From positions 62,001 to 126,000 of the forward strand of contig JALDZX010000031.1 of assembly GCA_022813865.1 (NCBI GenBank): a stretch of 64,000 nucleotides of DNA, given 5' to 3'. The notes beneath the pieces are model-generated. The model was not told the origin of the DNA and made no database searches. It saw only the letters and a list, made by a program, of their open reading frames with translations. Of the stretch, positions 2,589-64,000 are shown one piece after another. This DNA comes from Xylographa opegraphella (taxonomy: Eukaryota). The stretch's first letter is position 1, and every line of letters starts with the position of its first letter. The position numbers were made by a program, and so were the translations under genes.

Positions 2589-4211
2589 ATGGGTAGTCTT
2601 CAAATGCTATTAAGGAAGCTGGGCCTTGGGAAACATGGTCAGGATACAGCGCAAAGTGTATCATTGCGTCTGGAAATTAGGAAAGCCATCAAGAACTGTG
2701 TCCTACCATCCGAATTCTCCCAGGCTTCCGTTTCCACTATCGCCGAATCATCTCAAGTTGAACGCATGGTAACAGATTATCTTGAGAATTGTGGAGTAAG
2801 AGGAAGAATACGCAGGTCACAGTTTCCTAATCTGTATGGTGCTTTGGTCAGCTACGTTACAGTAGACTGGATGAGGTTGATATCTCTAGTATTATGAGCC
2901 TTATGCGGGAGGCTTTTGCTCGCTAGATTCAGAGTACAATCAACGCTGCCACTCACGGGCCACCTCCCGATACATCCGTATCCAAGCCGCCTTCTACACG
3001 TTTAAACCCTCAAGTTCACGAGAAACATAATATCATCGATCTTCAGGGCTCGGATTCGGATTCGGATTCGGATTCGCATTTGGTTTTGGCCTCGGACCAT
3101 GACACGGAAAACTCCTCCATCAAATCGTCCGAAGAAAATCCATCAGTGGACCAATCAGAAGTGTCCTCACAGTAAAGAAGTACATGACTGTAGTCATAGA
3201 ATTCTGCTAATGGTTCTTTCCAGATCTCCCCTTGCATTCAGACCAATGAAGGCCGTTGTCAATACTCTCCGGCGATGGCGAAAAGAGAATGACGACGACG
3301 TTCCTCCGGGGGCTTCCAAACTTGTATCCAGCGTGCTCAGAAGATCGATTGTTAAGAGAGCACGGATGTGTGATGATCAAGATGTTGAGGTCGCGCGCTT
3401 TAAGATCGATGAAGAGTACATGGGATGGTTTCTGAAAGAGCCGGACGGCATGCTCTTATACGTAAACGTATCTAAGGGCCGTGGACCGGAAGCGGCAGTC
3501 ATGCATCATGCTTGGCTCGGTGATGATCGAGGATTTCCCAACGACCATGTTGCAAAATCATGGGGACGTGCCCAGCCCTTGAAAGATGCTATCCGAATGC
3601 CTGGACCTCAACCAGTCTCACAAGTAACTCATGCAGGTAAGTCTATAGCAGCTTGCAGGATTATCGGGAAACTAACTGATTGAAGCATCGCCCGATCGCC
3701 CTCAAGTATCGCACTCCATTTCTCACCGAGCTAGTACAGGCGTCTCATTCTCTGAGTCAATCGCGGAGGCTAAACCCAGACCCAAAGTGCTGAGCCAAAC
3801 GAAACCCAGACGGAGACTCTCGAGCCAACCTTGAAGAGGAGCCGATCGCCAAGCATTGAGAAAGTAGACGTGCCTTCCAAATGCCCCAAGGAGTCGCAGC
3901 GAAATGTTACCTTCCTATTCTACGTTTGTGATCCCACCCTCGGTGCGATTCCAATGTCGTCTTCAAAATGCAATACCGTCAGCGCATTTTGTGATGCCGC
4001 GTTAACCGCTTTCAATATAATGGCCAAAAGCCGAGAACATGACCCAACGATCGTCGCTCTGCAAATATCCTGGGAACGTGCAAGGACGGCACTTGTCATG
4101 CCATGGAGAGATGCAGAAGCTTTTGAAAGGATCATGAAAGCAATTCGTGAGACAAATATGAAAAATCCCGCGGAGATAACTGTAGAGGTAAGATGTTTTC
4201 TTCAGAATTAG
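2589..4211 (+). CDS. Orphan multi-exon gene A with C-terminal ~98-aa domain shared with the next gene; possible in-frame TAG at 2924-2926
   Basis: Predicted introns 2834-2889 (or 2847-2926), 3172-3223, 3637-3685 and 3706-3779 link ORF fragments 2589, 2927, 3225 and 3780-4211. Contains IIDLQGSDSDSDSDS. C-terminus aligns without gaps to gene B. Confidence 0.55.
3046..3077 (+). repeat. (TCGGAT)n hexamer microsatellite encoding SDSDSDSDS in gene A
   Basis: ggctcggattcggattcggattcggattcgc seen directly. Confidence 0.85.
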
Positions 4212-4753
4212 AGGAGCTACAATGCAATAGACGTTTCCTCTTTTATGCCTTTATGGTCATAGAATCGTGGTCTTGTTTTACCAAAGTCTTCGAAACAATA
4301 AGAAGCGAGCGTCCTCGATGCAGCATTCTGGCTAGCATAATTGAATATCGATTTGAGCCGCTTCTTCTAGACATGCTGATATCAACAAGTTAATGACTCT
4401 TGTTCCAGTGACTACCTTAGTCCTTTCTGGGTGCAAGCTGCCCGAGAAGTGCTGAGCGAGATACGTCTTTACTTTAACACAGTGTGTTTCGTACAGGGTT
4501 CGCGGACTTCGTGACATGGCCTCAATAACACTGGGCCCATCAACACAGTCTGAGATGTGGCCTATGCACGCTACGTATATGTATGTTGAGCTTTTACACC
4601 CTGGACTTCTGGACAGCATGAATATACACCTTGTCATCCGACTCGTTGGGCTCAATACCATAGCTTCAGAATCAACCGGGATTCAATCTATCTAAGTAAT
4701 TATCAAGCCTGCCTTCATACCAATGGGCGGACACCAAAAAAAATATCCTGCAG

Positions 4754-6218
4754 ATGGCTATGGCAACAGCGAACCACCTTAAACAGGGTATCGAGTGGTA
4801 TCTCGATCAACTGCAGCAATCCAAAAGTAACATGTTCAACGGGTTGTCCGAACTTGTTGACCACCATGGAATGACCTCCTTCGATGCTTGGGTCGAGACA
4901 CAGCGCGGGTCTCCGCTTGCTAAATTTCTCCCGGCCGGAAAGCTGAAGAATGTTGTCGAAGACTACCTTCAAAAGGGGGCTGGGGAACTGTTCTGGCCTT
5001 CCCACTCCTTAGATCCATCGTTTAAACAGCTGCAGTGGTCCGCAGAGACTGATAGGATAAAGTAAGAATTATTTATTGGATGGGGTTATGACCGCCAGTG
5101 CTGATTGAGTGATAGAATTACCACACTTGTTCTGGGGTTGACGTGTTTGATAACGTTTCACCGACTGCAAAGCTTTTACAACGCTGCCCCATATGCTCAC
5201 TATGCTCGTCAGTCCGTTGTCACTAATGACAGCGCCACGAGTGGAAATATCAGTGAGAATCAGGTAAATCCGTCGGCGCCTCCTAATGATACACCCGTTC
5301 GCTACGTTTCGCCTTACGCTGAGCGTAACCATCCCGTAACATTGGCCACTGCGGGAAACTCCGTTGTCCAAGGCGAGTACATTACTGATAAACAATCATC
5401 CAATCCACCAAGCACATATTGGGTAGGCGAAACTAGCAATCGACGCTTCTCCGATTTTCCTCCGTATCTCCAAGGGGATAGTCGTCACAAGTACGAAGCC
5501 CGGAGGATGCTACAAATTTCAGAGCTAGCCATGGTATCCTGTACGAGATGTGTCAAGGCTGGTGTGGATTGCTACATGAAATATGGTAGAAAGACTTGCG
5601 TCTACTGCACTGCCCGTGGACTGCGAGTCAGAGATTGCCAGCCGTGCCAGACTAGTGTATATGCTGTTCTCCAAGGTCGATCTGATATGAGGTTAGCACA
5701 AAATCTATTCTGATAGTAGCGTGAACTAAAACCATTGAATTAGCACACTTGATGCCTCACCTATACCGTCTCTGTCGAACATCGGCGAAAGCTTCACCGG
5801 CTCCGATGTTCCCACTAACCATGAACTCCCGAGCCACCCAGACCTACCGGCAAGGCCACGTACGCCAATCAAACAAGAACAAAGCGTACCAAAGATAATC
5901 TTCCTCTTCTTTGCCAGCCATAGCGGAGAGGTCCCGATTGAAGAAACGTTCTCGAGCCACAGCACTATGGATTCCTTCTTCGACGAAGCGTACAAAGTGT
6001 GGCACACCGTCGATCAAAGTTTAGCTGGAGAGCATTCCATGACCGGCGTGGCGGTAAGCTGGGACCAGAATGGTAGTGCTGCTACCATCAAGTGGCGAGA
6101 ACAGTCAGGCTACGATTCGTTGATGTCCCAAGTAATGGGAGCGGTGCCGAACAGGTACGGAGAGGTCATTGTCGAAGTCAAGTGTATCAGCCAAATGTCA
6201 GAGAACGAGGCGGAGTAA
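4754..6218 (+). CDS. Orphan multi-exon gene B with Cys6 (Zn-cluster-like) motif and C-terminal domain shared with gene A
   Basis: Introns 5062-5115 (GTAAGA..GCTGAT..TAG) and 5692-5743 (GTTAGC..TAG) join ORFs 4754, 5105 and 5745-6218 in frame. Motif CTRCVKAGVDCYMKYGRKTCVYCTARGLRVRDC. Start codon uncertain. Confidence 0.6.
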
Positions 6219-7232: not shown

Positions 7233-8524
7233 TCAAGTCCCCTTCAGCCGCCCCCACTCCGGCCTAGTCTCCACTCCCTCCGCTCCAACCACCTTCCCAC
7301 GGTCCCACTCCCTCCCCTCTCCACTCCCTTTCCATTTCACATCTTCCTCCGTCTTCTCCCCGCCCTTCTCCCACTTTCCTACTTCCTCCTCTGTAAACCC
7401 CGCCGCGCGCAGTCGGTCCGCTCCTTGCTGCTGCCACCGTTGCCGGTCGCGCAGCGCCTCCAGGGCTTGGTCCCAGTCGTTCTCGGAGTCGGAGTTCGGC
7501 CGCACGTCAATTGTCGGGTCGTACGTAGATGAGAAGTGCGCGTCCATTGCTGACGAGGAGGCGAAGGTGCCGCGGCCACGGGGGCGAACTTTCGGTGGAG
7601 GTGGAGGTGGAGCGGGTCCGAGTATAGTTTCAAGGGGGTCGGAATCTGTGTCGTTGGGATTGCTGGGTGACTTTGAAGCTAGGATTGGAGAAGATGCCTT
7701 GGCGGTCTTAACAAGCATTTTGGAATCTGGGGCTGGTGAGCGGGAGGTTTTCCTTCGATGTGGTCTTCGTTTCTCGTAAACCCGATCCCGATCTCGGTCT
7801 CGGGATCGACTTCGTCGTCTGCGTCTGTCTTTATCTCTGTCTCGGTCCTTGTGATGCCGGGAGCGGTCCGCTGACTGGTCCGCGCTGCTACTTCTACTAC
7901 GGCTACGACGGCTTCGATGATGGTGCCGCCGGCGCCTATGGCGTGTGGAGGGCTCAGAGTCGCTGCGTTCAGCTTCGGAGGATATATCTCGACGATGCCG
8001 CGGCCTCTCGTTCTCCGAATGATATCTCTCCTTTGCACGAGTAGAAGTTTGTAGGCTTGTTGGATCGCGTCGGTGATTTCGCCTATGTCTTGATTCGATT
8101 TCTTCATCTAGTCGTCTTCGTTTCTGCCGCCCTTCATCCACGACATGGGTATCCTCGTAGCGGAACAGCCTTCCCTCCCGCGAATTGTCCCGTTTCCTGT
8201 CTCTTGAGTTACGTTGAGCATCTCCGACGCTCTGAAGTCTCCTTAATCGTAATTTTGCTTCCTCTGTCTCCTTAGACTTCAAGGCCGCGTTGTGGCTGTC
8301 GGTTTCGCGGATGATATTCTTTAGGAATCGGGTGTTAGGGCGGGGCGCATTGGTGGTAGGTCTGGACGGAGTCAGCACTCGCAAAGTTCCGTATTGCGGC
8401 ATACGGACCGTTTCGGCAAAAGCCCTTGAATGCCTAGGGTATTGTATTTCATGTTAGTATCTTTCGCATCTTTGCTCATGAGCTTCGCGATGTACTCATC
8501 GGACATGTAGTCTTCCGAGGGCAT
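7233..8524 (-). CDS. Conserved fungal RS/RD-rich nuclear protein (often auto-annotated as splicing-factor-like)
   Basis: ATG 8524 (MPSEDYMSDEYIAKLMSKDAK); intron 8362-8408 joins to PTTNAPRPNTRFLKNIIRETDSHN; RSR/RD tracts; C-terminal WDQALEALRDRQRW..GEGREWDRGK. Confidence 0.8.
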
Positions 8525-8794
8525 TGTGATTCTTCCCCGATAAGTAAGACAAAATTAGCAACTCTGGTGAGAGATCATGCCATACTTTGTCCGCTTCAGA
8601 TCCTTAGACTGCCAAAATGATTCCGCCCATGCTGCTGTTCATGGGATGACTGTCTGGATCGTGATGAAGTGACGTCGGCTTACCCCGGATTTAAAGTCAG
8701 ATCTCGCTTCTGACGCCTCGTAAGGCGCTCAATGTAAACACAGGGCAAATGCCCACGAGACACGCTGTCTCAACTCACTTCCTCGGGAGAAGCA

Positions 8795-9754
8795 ATGCCT
8801 CAATCATATGAGGATATTCTCTACACGCTCTCTGAGCTACAGAGCCGAGAGCTATCTATCATTCGTCTCAGTGAGCCCATTTCTGCTGCGTATGCGCCTG
8901 GCGCGCCGAAGCGGACTTCTGATGTCTCCTCCGATGCCTTCGAGAACCCTTCACCTGCCAGTCTAGCCGCTGATCTGGGTCACTATAAAGTGTGAATATC
9001 TGTAAACCACTTTGACCAGACGCGAATGCTGATCTACTCTAAAGGAGCTCTTCTCCAAACTCCGCTTCTCCTACCTCGAGCAGGTGACGAAGGAGAAGTT
9101 CCTCCGTGCTATAGTCGGTGATCCACCGCAGATCATTGAGCAAAAAGAGAACGTGGAGTTGGAAGCGCAGCTGGTGGCTGTAAAAGCAGACCTCAAGGTA
9201 CAGAAGGCGGACGTTGCGAGTATGGTGGAGGAGCTGGAAGCTCGAGGACGAGATTTAAGCCGGCGTGCGTGCTCGACCAACCCTGCCGCCTTTGCTGGTC
9301 TAAGTTATCGCTGACGTGTTCGATAGGCTACGAGAATATATCGCTGCAGACCGCCCAGCTCTCCGCCCTTCCAGCTCAGATTTCCTCTCTGCAAGATATT
9401 CTTGTCGACCTCCGGGCCCGACAGACCAAGCCATCGAACAATCCTTCTCTGTCCTTGCCTCTTCCAGCTACTCTCGAATTAGTCACCACTCGACAAGCCG
9501 AGTTGGATGAGTTGAACAAGCAGCTCAGGAGCCTGCAGCAGTTCCTACCGCGAAAGACGAGGGAACTTGAACTACTGGAGAAAGAGTTGAAACCCTTGGA
9601 AGTGCAGAAGGCAGCAACCGTAGCGGCAGCACAGGAGGCGATGAGAAGGAAAGATGAGGCTGAGAGAGGGTTCGGTGATGAGTTGGAGCTCAAAGGGAGG
9701 TGGTATAGGAGCGTGGAAACCGGATTGACAGAGATGCTGGGTGTTGAGGTTTGA
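8795..9754 (+). CDS. sos7: Kinetochore protein Sos7 (Kre28/Zwint-like, Spc7/KNL1 partner)
   Basis: Introns 8990-9044 and 9265-9326; signature DLGHYKELFSKLRFSYLEQVTKEKFLRAIVGDPP followed by coiled coil. Confidence 0.85.
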
Positions 9755-10173: not shown

Positions 10174-12958
10174 TCAATCTTCTTCCTCTTCTTCATCTGG
10201 CCGAGAAATACCTCGAGCGGCCAGTTTAACCCAATCCGCCTCTTTTAATGGAATTAAATCAAAGTTCATTGGTTCAGTCACCCCAGACCTAGATTTTGAA
10301 TGCCCTTAGCCTACAGACGACATGATCAGAAAATATGGGAGCTTACGTGAGAAAATCAACCTTCATGTTTCTTGCCTTGTCCTTCAGTGCAACCTGATCC
10401 CGATAAGCTAGGACGCTCTGCGTGTCCATTTTCTTAAGAAGTGACCAGCTAATGCCATACTCTCCAATAAGATCTATGAACACTTCCGTCTCCTCGTCTG
10501 TCCATGCCCTCCTCTTTTGCACACGTTTAGGTCTATGTATGGCCGCGACGTTCCTAGATTGCGTCCGTGCAACGCTGTATATCTGTGAGTTTGATAGAGG
10601 CGGTGGGGCATTGGCCTGGTTAACCGCAGCTTCAATATCTGGGTCTACACTGATAGTTCTTTCTCTATCTGCCGCTAATCGGACTCGCTTATCGGGCGAT
10701 TTGGGAGCTGATGCAGATACATGCCGCTTAGCAAGGTTGGATTTTGGCAGATTAAAACGACTGTCCTGCTGAAATCCTTCATCCTCGCTAGGATCTGTAA
10801 TCTGTTCCTCGTCCAGTTCATTTTGTAGAGGTCTTTTGGATGCCACGTTCGATGCACGATTCCGTGGTGCTTCCTCCTGACTCTCGAAGGATATCTTTTC
10901 AGCGTTGGGTTGTCGATCTATAAAGAATCGATTTTTACCAGGTCTATCAGAGACTGAAGACGGTTGAGGACGGTTCTCTTTGTCTTCCTCGTCTACTGAC
11001 TTTTGGAAAGTTTGTATTATGGAGTCAATCCTTTCATCGCGTGGCAAAGGATCTATTTGAGGCTTATTGTCGTCCATAAGGGGCCGACTGTCATCCATTT
11101 GGGGCTGGTAGTCGTCGCTGGCTTCGTCCTGGAGAACTCTTTCGTTCGCGAACTTGGCAGGTGCTGATGCCGGCAGTCGATTCTCAACGAGTTTGCTCCT
11201 CGGGGTCGAAGTAGTTTTCGAAGGTCTGGCAGTAGCTGGTATTGAGCGATCATTGATTTTCGATTGGGGCTTTCCTGTGTGGGGAAGCTTATCTGATTGC
11301 CAGGCTGTACCAGCAGCGAGTTTCCGTTTCACAAGATTTATAGCACTGGGACGATCAAATCTGCATACGATCAGTGACCTGACAATGCGCAACAGATCGT
11401 TGATGGGATTGCATTGAACCCTTACCCTGGGTTTAGTCTTGAGGCCCTCCTGGAACCCTGCTTGACGGCTGAATGTGGTTGTTCAGGCCGGTCCGATGGG
11501 TAATGTGAGAGTTCAGACGGATGGAAATCCAATTGGACGTTGAGCGGGCTATCATCTCCTCCCCCTTTAGCTGCATCTTCAATTGGTTGAGCTGCTCTTC
11601 GCGTTATTTCTGCTGCCAATGCACTAGTAACCCTCTCAATACCGCCAACCAACACCAACTGAGCTTCCACCTCCACTCTGCGGGATTCAGCCCACCTCAC
11701 AAGATGGCTTACACAAGTAGACCATGGGTATTCTGAAATTAGGGACTCCACATCCAGAACGTCTTGCTCATTAAAGAGTTCCTGGATCACACCCAGCCTC
11801 TGCACTATCATTTTCTGATGCCGCCCGATAAGGTCCTTACTTCTAAGGCCGTCAACGTCCCAGCCCTTGATAACTTGCGGGCCATCATAAAACATCTCAC
11901 TTAGGAGGATATCAGGATCAAAATTGGTGTCTTTGAAATGCTGCTTTAGCAAAGAGATAAATAGCTGCATACGTATGTGGAATACAGCTTCCAGAGTCTC
12001 ATCGAGAAGATAGCTAACACCAGGGAGCTCAACTTGCTGTTGAGATTCAGAGAGTTTTGAGAGAAATGGGGTGGGAAAGTCCCGCTCCATTTTCTCCGCC
12101 CAAGGCAGTATTGATTGTGCAGAAAGTGAAAACAGACTTGTCATTAAATGGGCAATATTCGCTCTATAGAGGATAGCATCCGGCCGCCATGGACCGAGTC
12201 CCACTTGTCTTGAGCGTCGTACTGCGAGAGTGCCTCTGACTGCAATAGAAACATTGATATAAGGTTCATTGCCATAAACCTTTCTAGTCGGCTCGAAAGA
12301 CCCAGTGAGTCGGGCGAGCTTCTTGGTCAGCAAACTTGTAGGATCCTGTAGTTGCTTAAAAATTGTTTCTATGTTCTCGTTTGATAATTCTTCTGGTAGG
12401 AGAAGATTCAGGATCTTGTCTGAGGCATCGGCAAGGTCTGGGAGTGCATCCACCATTTCGGCTTTATCTAGCTCTGCAAGCTCTTGTGCGGAGTGAGAAG
12501 TCCTGGCAGTCATCCCAGAGATAACTGACAAACTCCTTGGTGATCTTTTTACATCTGAAGGACCGGAAACTTCGGTACCACTGACTTCAACTCCAGAATT
12601 ATCATCCTCGGCATCACTTTCAGTAATGCCGATAGCTTCAATAACAACAGAAAGATCTAGACATAATTTAGTAGTCAAAACAATAATACTTTAGTACGGA
12701 TAATATACCTTGTTCAGGCTTTATTCGGCCGCCAATCTTCTTCCTGCGGCCATCGCGAACGCCATTGCTTTCTGCACTTGCTGCTCTTGTGGTCCGCCGA
12801 AGAGTCAATGCTGTAGGTTCTCCATCGCTGATATCGCGACTTTGGCTTCGGGTTGTCCGTTTGCTCTGTTGCGCTTTAGCAGCCGGTTGTCGAACTTGAG
12901 GAGGGGATTGGGGTGTAGTCCGCCGGCTGGAGGACCGCATGCCTGCACGTCCTGCCAT
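10174..12958 (-). CDS. Telobox Myb-domain protein (Taz1/Tbf1/TRF-like)
   Basis: Introns 12657-12708, 11361-11425 and ~10290-10346. Helical central region. C-terminal Myb RRAWTDEETEVFIDLIGEYGISWSLL..RDQVALKDKARNMKVDFL. Last exon ends DEEEEED-TGA at 10174. Confidence 0.8.
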
Positions 12959-58245: not shown

Positions 58246-61200
58246 CGATGGACAGGACCGCGCGAGAACACTTTCCTCTGGACTATAAGAAGGACGGCAT
58301 CAGTGCCCGAGTTGCGAAGCCGACGAGGAATTTGAGGCGGAGCGCTCTCCACCGTCGAGTGAAGCACTAGCGAATGTCACTGCCGGGGGAGGAAGGGGGA
58401 GGGGGTGGGTGTGGGTGTGGGAGGGGTGGTCCGAGGTGGTGATGGCACTGCAACAAACACAAGAGACATGCAACGGTATGGTCGTGAGTCAGCGGAGCAG
58501 TCGGTCGCGTACGTCAGTTGCGATGGGGCTGGTGGGCGACGGTCGAGCTGCAGAGGCTGGAACGAGCTTGGTGCGGCATGGACGGCCTTTTTTGGTTGGA
58601 TGCCAGCGCTTGGTGTTGGTGTTTCTTTTCTATCCACCGCTCTGCAGAACAGGCATGGGACGGGATTGCGGCATATGCCGGGCCTGGAGGAGAGCGCAGC
58701 AGAGTGGCAGCATGTCACGCATCGGGTATGGCACCGGGTCACAAAGTCAACGACGTCGTCTCGCAGGCTCCACTCGCGCGCGACAGCTTTGGGACGGGGG
58801 GGGAGATCGATCTGATAAGTAGCCGGGAGGGAGGGGAAGGCGTCGGCCACAAGTCAGGAAGCGGAAAGTGTCTAGAAGAAAGTTCCAGGTGAGCGAGAAT
58901 AATGGATTGGTCGGTGGACGAGGCAGCGCCGTCAAGATCAAGCCACGGGAAGGCCGGGCTCGATCTGGAGAACAGGCTTAATTCTTTGAGCAGACGGGGG
59001 AGCGGCCCCACGGTGATGTAAGATCCCAAGATCCCAAGATCAACAGAAGGCCCGGTACTCGTAGTCAGGGAAAGATGAGAGTAGGATCAGGGGCGAGTCT
59101 ATCGGTGCAAGAGGGCGGAACGGGGCACGGTGTGGGCCTCGGTAGTCCCGTAGTCCGGTAGTAGTAGTAAGGAAGCCTTTCGGTCGATACTTTTGGTAGA
59201 GCAGATTGAGCTCATCGACGACCCAGCTGCCGGTAAGGTTACAGCTTACAGGGAGCGATGTACCGGGGCGACAGCAAGGCCCGTCCAGACGGCCCGACGG
59301 CCCTGCACCATGACTTCGATCTCGGGGGGAGGAGTGGCGACCAAGTGTCCTTGGAGGATGGGGATCCCTGTGACTGAGGTTGTTTGGTGGTTGTGGTTGC
59401 GGTTTTGGGGTCAAGGGTTAGGGGGGTTATTGAACTAGGGACGAGGGATCTGTGACGGAGTAGGTAGTAGGGGAGAAGAGGACTCTCCCGCCCACTGATA
59501 TAAATGGCCGGATCGACAGCTTGGGGAGGGGTCTTGCTATTGGGCACGTCGTGCATGTAGGCCCGGCGGAGGTCAACTGTAACTTCGACGCTATGGAGGC
59601 CAAAGGGGGACTTGGGAGACAGACCAGAGCCAGAAGCGCGGACGAGATCTGGGAAATGGCTGCTTACCACGAACTCTCTTGCCTTTTCAGCCCAGATGCA
59701 GGCCCCGAACCGCCGACCCAAGAATTACGACCTGGTCCCGCGGTGGCACGGCGGTGGTGAACTACAGGGAGAGGAGAGGAGGGAAACAGTGGCAGACCAG
59801 TTTACTGGCAACGGCGGTAGCTTTTCGGTTCGTGTTCATGGCCCAGCCAGTCCGTCGACGCGCTTTGATGCCCCTTCATCTCACGCTCCATCGACCGATG
59901 AAAGCGGGATGCGGATCCTCCATTCGCGCCCAGACTGGAGGAAGTGCCGGCATTTAGCGACGCTACTCCTTCTGTAAGGTAGCGCTTCTTCTCCAAATGC
60001 ATTGCTCCGAATGACCGTGATTTCCGATGCTTGGGAACCCCAAACACCACTCGTCGGCCGTTGAGGAAAAAGCAAAGGCCGAGAAAGGGACGATTCAATG
60101 GCGGAGAAAAAAGCCGAGTGCGAACGGAAGCCAAGTCGCACTAGCAGGGACAGGCAGGCCATGCACGGTGCAAGGATAAGCCCTGTAGATAATTTAAGGT
60201 TTGGAACGCAGCGGAGGTGCAGGAGAGCCGGGGGCGAGCATGAGCAGGGGTCAGGGGCCGAGCTTACCGCAACGGGGGGGCTCGAAGGGTGGGCGGCAGA
60301 CACGAAAAGTGGGTGGGGGCACAGACGGCAGAAGCCAAGAGAGAGCGACAGGAGGCGGGGGGGGAGCCACGACGGGCGGGCATCGGGCAGGTGGTACTCT
60401 GTAGGTCGTCTCACGAAAGCGGTAGACGAGGCATCGGACACGTGAGATCCTCCCCGTGCAGGTGTGGGAGGAACACTCATCTGCAGCCATGCAGAAGGGG
60501 CGTGTGTCGAAAGATGAGACGAAAAGCGTGAGGGTGTGTGTTGCGTGGTGGGCAAGTCGGAGTCGGGGTGTACGACGACCAGAAGGGCGAGTAAGGTGCC
60601 TCTCTCGCCCCAATCGTTTCAGTGTCGGGGTCCGTGGTGTGGCTGGAGACGGCCAGCCACGAAACACGGTCCGCTACCCTCATCCGTGGACAAAGGCGTG
60701 ACGGGACAGCGTCGAGAAAGATGCCGTGGAGGGCATGGGCTTCAAAACATCGGATCTTCGTTGCATTGTTATCCTGGCCGATGCATCGCCCGTCACCACT
60801 CTCGTGCTCGATTCGGGTGCCACAACATCGTTGCATGAGAATCGATGTTGCCTTTCCCCCTTTGCCTCCTTCTCCCTTCTCCCTTCGTCCCATCTTTCCC
60901 CGTGCTCCAGCCCTACGCGACCAGCATTTGATCCGTGCTGATGCCATTACTATTCCACTCGGCACCATCTCCAGAGCTGCCGCTCGGCATCTTTTGGTGC
61001 CTTGATCGGCAAGGGACATGAACACTCCGAGGCCCGGTCGTCGCCTCGGCTTCGATGATGGACCGCCTGCCTAGTATTGCTGCAGCGCTCATCCCTCCCA
61101 TTCGGCAACAATCGTCAAAATGGTCACAGAAAATAGTTACCCGATGTCTGTCTCCCATCAAGTGCACCGGCCGCCCCCCCCAGCGTGGTACAGAGCGTCC

Positions 61201-64000
61201 GAGCCGCCGGCTTGACAAGTGCCCAACGTTACATGGCCCAATGCAGGCCGCGGTCTTAGACTTCTCTGGACGACGTGGGCGGGAAGGAATGATGTCGTGG
61301 TAAGGTCCCACGACTATGCGGCCAGGCTGTTCGTTGCCGGTTGCGCGCTTCCCCTCGGCGCGGCGCTGGTGTTTCGTGGCCGCCCCCCCGTTGAGGTCGC
61401 CTCGGCGTGGAGCGGCCCTACGTGCACCTTCTGCGCCGCAGGCCGCAGCTCGCACCGTATTGCGCTTTTGGGTAATGGCATCGACGTCAGGTTCGAACGA
61501 CGGAGCCAGACTGCGGCAGCGTGGACGTTGACGCGCACTGTGTGGGCCTGTTGGAAGCGTACGTGATCGCATCGTGGGAAAGTCGGTGGGCGGAGTCGGT
61601 GCTGGCGGTTGGAGGTCAACGTCGGCATTCCGCACAAGATTTCGCACGGCCGCGCCATCGAATTCCTCAGGGTGCGCCCTTCCGCCACGGGGATGCGAGG
61701 AGCCAAATGCGCGGCAGGCGTTCGTGCGCGGACGGGCAGCAGGTCTTGCTCAAGCTTCATCGGCGCTCTCTTTTGACCTTCCCACTGATTGGTCGCCAGG
61801 AATGCGTGCAGCACTAAGAAGTACCTCTCATGGCCCGTCTGCGACGGAAATTCTCCACTGTGCTGCAGTCGACAGCGCATGATCGAGAATGCCGGACCCG
61901 GTTTCCTCATTCCTCTAATGCCATTGACCAACCACCTTAGCTTACGTCGTCCGTTCTAGGGGTTTTGGGCTCTGCCTGAAGCATTCATTCCACGACCAAG
62001 CAAGGCGAGCACCGTCGCTGTGTCTCTTTTGCTATCTCACACCGCCGGCTCTAGCGTTTCCAGCAGTCCCGCACCACGCGGCAACATGTCGGTGCCACCA
62101 AGGCATGGTCAAGGTTCCATGCCGTCGTCGCAATGATGGGGTGAAACAATTCGAACAAATGGATGTGGAACAGCAGACCATGCCGACGGACGTGTTCGAC
62201 AGCTTGACGCTACGAATGAATAACGCAGACTCCACTCCGTTTCAAGCAGAAGCATAAGTACTCTGTACGGTCTACGCTCTAGTCGCTCCATGCCGTGCCC
62301 TACTCCGTACCTACCGATGCCTGCGGTCACCAGAGGCAATATTGCCTACCGTGGACGGAGTTCGAGGTGGACCGGTTCTCCCAGCTCATCGTCGGCAGTG
62401 TGGCAAGCGACCGCAGCTCATTCGAGCAATTCGAGTCCGCTCTACAACAAGGCAAGATGTTCCTGCCCCCGTTCGAGCACAAGGCAAAAGTGTATCGAGC
62501 CCGATGCAGCGTCTGGGGGGTTTATGCGCGCTTCATCTGATGCTCGCCCTCGTTTGGGGGATTAAGGTTCGCATGACTCTGGTGCGACCCGCGGCCCAGT
62601 CTTGCCTTTAATCCTAGCCGCTGCTGGCTTGGCACACGACGGCGCTGTCGATCTCTTGCCAAGGCTCGGAGCACGGAACTTTTCACAGCGAATCAGTCCC
62701 GACCGTTGACAATCCCAGCTGGATAAGGTAAGGGAAGGGAGTGAAATAATAGGCGGGCTGGATGTCGAAAGAGGAAGCTGCTGCTGATGTGTCAATGGCG
62801 CCGGCAAAACTCCTCTGTTCTCTCGATCCTCTTTCACGCGCATCTCTCGGGGCAACAGTGCTCCGAGCATCACGGTCGCCGGGGACGAAAAGAAAGAAAC
62901 GCACCAAAAGACGGCAGGATACGAGTGCTGGGAGCGGTGCGGGCGCCACCGAGGGAAGGGAAGGGAAGGGGATCCCCCGCTCCTGCTGCGTCACCCCGTG
63001 CTCGACCCCGCAGCGGTGCGAGCAGCGAAAGGCAAAGCTTATCGTCTTTACACTTTCCGCCTTCTCTTCCTCCCAAACCTTTTTCTGTCTGGATCGGTGG
63101 ACGAGGCGCGATGCGGTGGGAGAGACATCGGGCGTGACGGCCGTGGTCGAGCGGTCTGATAGGGCCGGGAACGTCTCGCTCGCCTGCCCGGCGGCGTTTG
63201 ACTTCCCGCCCCCGGTGCCAGCGCGCAGTGGTCAAAGTGCCGATTGGTGTCGTACAACTGGCCGGTCGCCTTACGCGCACAAATCATACGTCACGATTGG
63301 AGGCTCCTGTCTTTGATCACGGAAGCTCTCTCGTCAAACAGGATCGAGCTGGCATCAGGGGAGTGATGCTGAGTCGGAAATGATGCATTGGATCATCATC
63401 GTGGGCAATCACGGCGGTGGGCATGGTGGAGGGGAGCTGGAGTCCGCAGTCTCGAGGCGTCTTCGTCGACGACGGACGACGGACAACTCGACTTCACCTG
63501 CTGGACCGACCCAATCAAGCTGGACTGCTTGTAGGCAGACTGGAACTTTGGGGCCGAGAGCAAGCCACCAGATGCGCCGTCAGCGTGATTGATCTGGCGC
63601 TTCCTGCACGAACTCTCCATCGGGACCGCAATCTGACTACTGAACAAAACTGACTAGATACTAACACATAGATGATCCGTATCGCCGGGCGTCCATCATC
63701 CTCACCAATGCCCGCAAGAGTCGAAGAGCCGCAGGCAATGGCAGGCATGGTATGTCCGTGGAATGTATCTAATATTTGGAATCCAGCGGAGGTACATCCC
63801 TTTAGGACATCCCCCAAGCATCAGCATTCCCTCCCCTCTCAGTACCATCATCCCATCCAACGTCGCCATCCATTCGCCTCCGCCAACAGTGCCAACCGGT
63901 GCGAAGAACCGAGCATCCGGGATCGCTGCACCCAAGCCGGTAGCGAACGTTGCTTGCCCTGCCGAGATCTACCCTCGATACCTTGCCTCGTCGACTCGCT

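What the first reader, a model, noticed from the sequence alone, without database searches (positions are those of the whole stretch)
3906..6188. Tandem orphan genes share a gap-free 98-aa C-terminal domain (possible uncharacterised beta-grasp/PB1-like module)
Seen: gene A 3906-4199 (VTFLFY..TVSAFCDAA..ISWE..PWRD..FERIM..EITVEVRCF) and gene B 5895-6188 (IIFLFF..TMDSFFDEA..VSWD..KWRE..YDSLM..EVIVEVKCI) align over 98 aa with no gaps and 21 identities by my count. Their N-termini also echo each other (MVTDYLENCG vs VVEDYLQKGAG), each followed by a phase-2 intron and an amphipathic helix, while the middles differ. Inference: the hydrophobic pattern suggests beta-beta-alpha-beta-beta-alpha-beta, like PB1/ubiquitin-type folds that heterodimerise. 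An old, divergent tandem pair between housekeeping genes could be a two-component module (regulator plus partner, allorecognition, or poison/antidote).
Basis: partly seen in the sequence, partly recalled or inferred. Interest (0 to 1): 0.72.

Follow-up and report, generated by a model that had tools for sequence, protein, structure and literature searches.

The report
Lichen-fungus gene pair with PB1-like tails
Two neighbouring genes in a lichen fungus are old duplicates from an undescribed family of probable gene regulators that end in a PB1-like protein-docking domain; each copy kept different parts, and the first copy looks broken in this genome.

Summary
In detail: 21 of 98 identities without gaps, 0 of 10,000 shuffles as high. 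The fold guess holds too: AlphaFold2 pLDDT 92.6, best match MEK5 PB1 at Z 10.0, and the top 11 rows are all PB1. The genes are not orphans: the domain profile hits 106 clusters, lichen fungi where named. There is no Pfam match and no OPCA motif (0 of 101), so this is a PB1-like family, not canonical PB1. (1) Gene B carries a six-cysteine zinc-cluster-like motif (5540-5638). (2) A Stictis protein holds all four modules in one chain; A and B hold complementary subsets. (3) Gene A looks broken: an in-frame TAG at 2924 and a frame change near 3770 upstream of its PB1-like domain. The public model bypasses both with poor introns and fuses A to B. B lies next to a family member in 4 other Xylographaceae gene sets. 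Best reading: tandem-duplicated nuclear regulators that oligomerise through the tail, with A now decaying. A-B binding is inferred only; poison/antidote or allorecognition is unlikely but not excluded.

The parts
2589..2833 (+). Gene A exon 1: most of the helical N-terminal domain; about 11 residues shorter than the ortholog, lacking the family's G-x-x-Y/F-W-P motif
   Evidence: Aligned to P0008; family alignment
2834..2889 (+). Gene A intron 1, phase 2, same position as B intron 1
   Evidence: GTATGG..TAG with branch-like site 14 nt from the end; register matches relatives
2890..3171 (+). Gene A exon 2: last helix of the N-terminal domain, then acidic linker
   Evidence: Helix matches P0008 in register, 0 of 20,000 shuffles as high
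2924..2926 (+). In-frame TAG at codon 94 of gene A, aligned with Gln in the ortholog
3224..3636 (+). Gene A exon 3: uncharacterised alpha+beta middle domain (about 3249-3555, W-L-G-G-x-x-G-F motif in relatives), after intron 3172-3223
   Evidence: Profile hit E 3e-32; folded with pLDDT about 90 in the ortholog model; in 27 of 114 family proteins
3686..4211 (+). Gene A last exon after canonical intron 3637-3685; the entering frame stops at 3832-3834, and the conserved frame opens only at 3774 (frame change near 3770)
3906..4199 (+). Gene A PB1-like beta-grasp domain
   Evidence: AlphaFold2 pLDDT 92.6; Z 10.0 to MEK5 PB1, rmsd 2.2, 84 aligned
4754..5061 (+). Gene B exon 1: own start codon and helical N-terminal domain
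   Evidence: Start matches residue 1 of P0004; profile E 2e-41
5116..5691 (+). Gene B exon 2 after phase-2 intron 5062-5115
5540..5638 (+). Six-cysteine zinc-cluster-like motif C-x2-C-x6-C-x8-C-x2-C-x9-C in gene B
   Evidence: Same spacing in 8 of the 10 family proteins with the motif, x7 and x10 last spacer in the other two; 0 of 11,400 shuffles match the pattern
5744..6218 (+). Gene B last exon after intron 5692-5743; B reads as 452 aa without internal stop
   Evidence: branch signal of this intron is weak (35 nt from the end)
5895..6188 (+). Gene B PB1-like domain (fold inferred by homology, not modelled with an alignment)
   Evidence: Family profile 86.6 bits; alignment

Best explanation
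A and B are old tandem paralogs of an undescribed Lecanoromycetes protein family. The full architecture is helical N-terminal domain, alpha+beta middle domain, six-cysteine zinc-cluster-like motif, basic disordered linker, C-terminal PB1-like beta-grasp domain. Shown: homology, the predicted fold, the modules, adjacency in relatives. Inferred: the proteins are nuclear DNA- or chromatin-associated regulators whose tail mediates homo- or hetero-oligomerisation, as the PB1 tail does in plant ARF and NLP factors. After duplication B kept the zinc motif and lacks the middle domain; A kept the middle domain and lacks the zinc motif, so tail-to-tail binding could bring the modules back together. In this genome A is most likely a recent pseudogene and B works alone or with itself.
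For: 106 clusters at E<=0.001; 14 of 30 looked up carry names, all lichen-fungus genera (class checked for 5 species). Fold; language-model neighbours are also ubiquitin-like, though under 0.9. Architecture of 114 proteins: 1 with all four modules (Stictis P0119), 5 A-type, 4 B-type. The zinc motif occurs in several separate branches of the tail tree. AT-hook-like motifs in 4 relatives and basic clusters in 9 of 10 checked. Adjacent locus tags: trunciseda 810/811, carneopallida 5164/5165, bjoerkii 6350/6351, Lambiella 2129/2130, Trapelia 7895/7896. A's lesions.
Against: No OPCA core in 0 of 101 rows and no conserved beta-1 lysine (His in 60 of 101), so the usual PB1 pairing code is missing. 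The zinc motif scores below Pfam's cut-off (best E 0.97). The four-module ancestor rests on one predicted gene model, which could be a fusion like P0003, although it has only one N-terminal domain and one tail. A's domains are as conserved as B's against the same species (56-59% vs 45-65%), which fits only a recent loss, or real use of unusual splicing. B's neighbour in three gene sets is a deeper branch ('C', 29-36% identical to A), so the pair is not shown to be one-to-one orthologous.
Confidence: 0.55

Rival explanations
1. Independent paralogs: the tail is a self-association or ligand-binding beta-grasp domain, A and B never bind each other, and adjacency is only the trace of local duplication in a birth-and-death family.
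For: PB1 charge signatures absent. Copies elsewhere are unlinked (Pseudocyphellaria 4572 and 6741; Trapelia 2765). Damage also shows in relatives' models: an out-of-frame stretch in P0113 (95 vs shuffle maximum 82, 0 of 300) and a cut tail in P0007. B is intact without an intact A.
Against: Both types are kept side by side across two genera; the module content is complementary; B-type tails have their own conserved charges (Arg at column 4 in 78%, Glu at 16 in 89%).
Confidence: 0.25
2. Gene A is functional here: unusual introns remove the stop and the frame change as in the public model P0003, possibly with read-through into B, or the lesions are assembly errors.
For: The middle-domain and tail frames are open and 56-59% identical to the ortholog. 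A strong donor GTAAGA exists at 2796 and at 4188.
Against: The three rescue introns have no branch-like site in their last 45 nt, whereas 6 of 6 ordinary introns checked do. The DNA they remove encodes ortholog-like protein (p<1/20,000 and p 0.001, register chosen after alignment). The fusion intron cuts the conserved last strand. B orthologs are stand-alone in 4 species. Three separate lesions are unlikely as sequencing errors (inference).
Confidence: 0.13
3. Conflict module: allorecognition or poison/antidote, with the PB1-like tails as the recognition surface, A and C being ancient alleles at one locus and A (the poison) decaying first.
For: Fast divergence; A is 29-36% identical to the C copies of congeners, which are 48-54% identical to the Lambiella copy; no C copy found in this genome; A broken while B is intact.
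Against: No HET, NLR or toxin family hit at curated cut-offs. A third paralog or a faster rate in A explains the tree as well (p-AU 0.12 and 0.33). The zinc motif and basic linkers point to regulation.
Confidence: 0.07

Closest known systems
PB1 domains (MEK5, Cdc24, NBR1, MEKK3, p62; Pfam PF00564)
   Same: Five-strand, two-helix beta-grasp; Z 10.0 (rmsd 2.2, 84 aligned) to MEK5 PB1 and 8.2 to Cdc24 PB1; the first non-PB1 row is at Z 5.8. C-terminal position as in Cdc24 (recalled).
   Different: No Pfam PB1 hit in 99 proteins; 7-13% identity; no OPCA core, no beta-1 lysine; longer loop after helix 1. Not among the four fungal PB1 families (Bem1, Cdc24, Mug70, NoxR) listed in PMC7051960 (section 9).
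Plant ARF/Aux-IAA and NLP transcription factors with a C-terminal PB1
   Same: Putative DNA-binding module plus a C-terminal PB1-type oligomerisation tail; paralogs with and without the DNA-binding part. ARF5 and ARF7 PB1 appear at Z 5.1 and 4.6.
   Different: No sequence relation; different DNA-binding module; oligomerisation not tested here. The analogy is partly recalled.
Fungal Zn(II)2Cys6 (Gal4-type) transcription factors
   Same: Six cysteines in C-x2-C-x6-C-xn-C-x2-C-xn-C order (motif quoted in PMC8079791).
   Different: Spacers are 8 and 9, not 6 and 6; central position; below Pfam cut-off; lacks the basic residues usually found between Cys2 and Cys3 (recalled); no fungal TF middle-homology domain hit.

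Membership tests
PB1 domain | Ubiquitin-like beta-grasp fold, five strands and two helices | tested here: met
   Models of A's tail and of ortholog P0008; top structural matches are PB1
PB1 domain | Conserved lysine in strand 1 (type II) | tested here: not met
   Column 4 is His in 60 and Lys/Arg in 9 of 101 rows; Leu in both window copies. Position judged from the alignment and secondary structure, not from a superposition
PB1 domain | OPCA core D-x-D/E-x-D/E (type I) | tested here: not met
   0 of 101 rows in columns 51-76; definition from PMC7051960. Scattered acids remain at columns 57, 69, 71, 74, 78
PB1 domain | Pfam PF00564 match | tested here: not met
   0 of 99 proteins at E<=0.05; 0 of 26
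PB1 domain | Front-to-back dimer or oligomer formation | not testable with these tools
   Needs a binding assay or a co-folding run that uses the alignments
Zn(II)2Cys6 binuclear cluster | Six conserved cysteines in the cluster pattern | tested here: met
   10 family proteins incl. B; 0 of 11,400 shuffles; spacers differ from Gal4
Zn(II)2Cys6 binuclear cluster | Pfam PF00172 above cut-off | tested here: not met
   Best 10 bits against a cut-off of 21; none for B's own motif
Zn(II)2Cys6 binuclear cluster | Two zinc ions bound; sequence-specific DNA binding | not testable with these tools
   Needs biochemistry
Fungal allorecognition or poison/antidote loci | HET, NLR or known death-effector domain | tested here: not met
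   No such Pfam hit in window exons or relatives
Fungal allorecognition or poison/antidote loci | Balanced or trans-species alleles; presence/absence within species | tested here: inconclusive
   A and C are deeply split but allele vs paralog is unresolved; no population data

The most novel reading that the evidence does not exclude
A and C are ancient alternative alleles beside a conserved partner B, and non-canonical PB1-like tails act as the self/non-self or poison/antidote recognition surface in lichen fungi, with A decaying here after the conflict lapsed. A milder novel reading (about 0.25) is a split regulator in which two duplicated halves of a four-module protein reassemble through their tails.
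Probability: 0.07. Interest if true: 0.8.

Novelty: new variant of a known kind. Interest (0 to 1): 0.42.

Why it matters
It adds a candidate further family of PB1-fold proteins in fungi, invisible to Pfam, beyond the four listed in PMC7051960, and the only one seen here joined to a zinc-cluster-like motif. It also defines two folded domains without a Pfam match (N-terminal and middle). If the tails oligomerise without the lysine/OPCA code, that is a different PB1 pairing mode, and the family is a lineage-restricted candidate regulator in lichen fungi, where few regulators are characterised (own knowledge). It also shows a public gene model that fuses a probably broken gene to an intact one. 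Function remains untested, which limits the score.

Tried and rejected
Co-folding of the two tails gave no answer (score 0.00 twice, alignments not used, partner fold uncertain); this is not evidence either way. No RNA holder was listed, so no reads could be laid and neither expression nor the lesions were checked against raw data. Two metagenome scans found no relative's locus, so adjacency rests on locus tags only; order and strand are unknown. Word-based searches were insensitive (3, 4 and 3 hits). Sequence profiles found nothing meaningful in the PDB. The N-terminal and middle domains were folded only inside the 513-aa model, where the tail filled the match lists; their folds are barely tested, not shown to be new. 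The viral fold search was uninformative (best TM 0.13, rmsd 35). The Atlas search for the middle domain had low recognition and no usable family. No RIP-like dinucleotide signature in A. The bacterial promoter scan does not apply. Earlier-findings look-ups showed nothing. Literature: 'PB1 domain' with 'lichen-forming' gave 0 papers; listings showed no description of this family; subscription papers are not searched. The careful 99-row tree did not finish, so one search is the quick tree. Rows dropped from the 106 hits before alignment A3: P0003 (fused model), P0083, P0107, P0109 (short repeated matches), P0098, P0103, P0104, P0105, P0108, P0111 (partial).

Full report
Observation. The score is 102 against a shuffle mean of 23.0, with 0 of 10,000 shuffles as high (BLASTP E 3e-13). 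Searches of the own genome found the domain only here. The pair lies between a SUR7/PalI gene and, two genes on, a Sos7 gene. A public protein 100% identical over A's tail, P0003, is named Xylographa opegraphella by its source, a lichen fungus of the Lecanoromycetes.

Not orphans. A profile from A, B and two B orthologs, run over 1.84 billion representatives, gave 106 hits at E<=0.001. I aligned 96 of them with five further rows (101 rows); the ten dropped rows are listed under Tried and rejected. Of 30 hits looked up, 14 carry names: Xylographa, Lambiella, Trapelia, Stictis, Pseudocyphellaria, Circinaria, Pleopsidium. Class was checked for five species and is recalled for the rest. The seed was narrow, so more distant relatives in other ascomycetes are not excluded. 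None of 99 proteins scanned reached a curated Pfam cut-off.

Fold. Against 48,161 solved chains the top 11 rows were PB1 domains: MEK5 Z 10.0 (rmsd 2.2, 84 aligned), Cdc24 8.2, NBR1 7.6; the first non-PB1 row was 5.8. Foldseek ranked the same proteins first but at E 0.1. A second model, of the A ortholog P0008, repeated the result (Z 9.9). B's tail was not modelled with an alignment; its fold is inferred from the shared profile. The sequence signatures of PB1 pairing, a strand-1 lysine and the OPCA core (PMC7051960, passages), are missing: 0 of 101 rows have the core, and column 4 is His in 60 and Lys/Arg in 9. Partly conserved basic columns (17, 96) and acidic columns (57, 69, 71, 74, 78) lie on the same elements as the p62 interface residues K7, R21, R22, R96, D69, D71 and E82 (PMC6821454, passages). 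That correspondence is by secondary structure only. The domain works like a PB1 by fold but fails membership by motif. It is not one of the four fungal PB1 families in PMC7051960 (section 9).

Architecture. It is found in 10 family proteins and in 0 of 11,400 shuffles. It resembles the Gal4-type cluster (PMC8079791, passages) but scores below Pfam's cut-off. A carries instead a middle domain of about 105 residues, and both share a helical N-terminal domain. The ortholog model shows three folded domains joined by disordered linkers. Among 114 family proteins, one (P0119, Stictis) has all four modules, 5 have N+middle+tail like A, 4 have N+zinc+tail like B, 21 middle+tail, 4 zinc+tail, 77 tail only and 2 other. 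Many are fragments, so missing modules there mean little. The zinc motif appears in several branches of the tail tree, which favours an ancestral four-module protein with complementary loss. P0119 is a predicted model and could be a fusion, but unlike P0003 it has one N-terminal domain and one tail.

Age and linkage. B-type genes have a family member at the next locus tag in X. trunciseda (810/811), X. carneopallida (5164/5165), X. bjoerkii (6350/6351) and Lambiella (2129/2130); the neighbour of the X. soralifera B gene was not found. Trapelia has an adjacent pair of non-B type (7895/7896) and an unlinked copy; the two Pseudocyphellaria copies are unlinked. B-type tails form a supported group (98/96). 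B's neighbour is a true A ortholog only in trunciseda (59%). In the other three it is a branch I call C, 29-36% identical to A-type tails. Whether C is a third paralog, the ortholog of a fast-evolving A, or an old allele is unresolved (p-AU 0.33 and 0.12).

Gene A looks broken. With ordinary introns (2834-2889, 3172-3223, 3637-3685; each with a branch-like site) A has three lesions. It has lost about 11 residues holding the conserved tryptophan motif of the N-terminal domain. It has an in-frame TAG at 2924-2926 aligned with Gln in P0008. It enters the last exon in a frame that stops at 3832, while the tail's frame opens at 3774 with no ATG before the domain. The public model avoids these with introns 2796-2932 and 3706-3779 and joins A to B by 4188-4786. 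None of these three has a branch-like site in its last 45 nt, and the first two remove DNA that encodes ortholog-like protein (0 of 20,000 shuffles and p 0.001, the second with a register chosen after alignment). Against this, A's domains are as conserved as B's (middle 56%, tail 59%; B 46%, 45%, 65%), so any loss is recent. B reads through as 452 residues from its own ATG, though its second intron has a weak branch signal. Relatives' models also show damage, which fits a birth-and-death family or poor annotation.

How it most likely works. Shown: homology, modules, predicted fold, adjacency. Inferred: nuclear regulators (zinc motif, AT-hook-like motifs in 4 relatives, basic clusters) that oligomerise through the PB1-like tail, the duplicated copies dividing the zinc and middle modules between them; here A is decaying and B remains (0.55). 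Rivals: independent paralogs that never meet (0.25), functional A through unusual splicing or assembly error (0.13), conflict module (0.07).

Verdict. A real, well-spotted homology and a correct fold call. It is a new PB1-like variant in an undescribed lichen-fungus family, not an orphan pair, and probably not a working two-part system in this genome. A search for 'PB1 domain' with 'lichen-forming' found 0 papers and the listings showed no description; supplements were not read. Interest 0.42.

Noticed in passing
window 2589-6218: The public 870-aa model P0003 fuses genes A and B and cuts off the last strand of A's tail; very likely an annotation artefact.
   Followed up: yes
P0113 and P0007 (X. 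carneopallida models): P0113 has a 25-residue stretch that fits its relative only in another frame (0 of 300 shuffles), and P0007 ends before the last strand of the tail: both neighbours may be damaged or mis-annotated.
   Followed up: partly
window 2796-2851: A second canonical-looking intron (GTAAGA, branch-like site, CAG) overlaps A's intron 1; it also leads to the TAG at 2924.
   Followed up: partly
P0020 and P0115: Two family members of different branches share the same longest-contig length (338,460), hinting at another linked pair; the locus could not be fetched.
   Followed up: partly
P0045, P0047, P0051, P0070: AT-hook-like motifs in the linker of relatives that lack the zinc motif.
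   Followed up: no
window 3049-3078: Short hexamer repeat encoding an Asp-Ser run in A's linker; a similar run is in the ortholog.
   Followed up: no
window 7233-8554 (-): Next gene encodes an Arg/Ser-rich protein with no Pfam hit; then Sos7 (9033-9311) and a protein with a weak Myb hit (10343-11482, E 0.0024).
   Followed up: partly
L006 1-1992 (-): An ordinary-looking Zn2Cys6 transcription factor was the only match outside the locus (E 0.002), through the cysteine motif.
   Followed up: partly
L007 658-2829 (-): Gene upstream of palI looks like an ABC1/UbiB-type kinase (label recalled from motifs, not scanned).
   Followed up: no
window 40001-41000 and 47001-64000: GC skew of 0.41 in one kilobase, and GC up to 0.63 in the last quarter of the window.
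   Followed up: no
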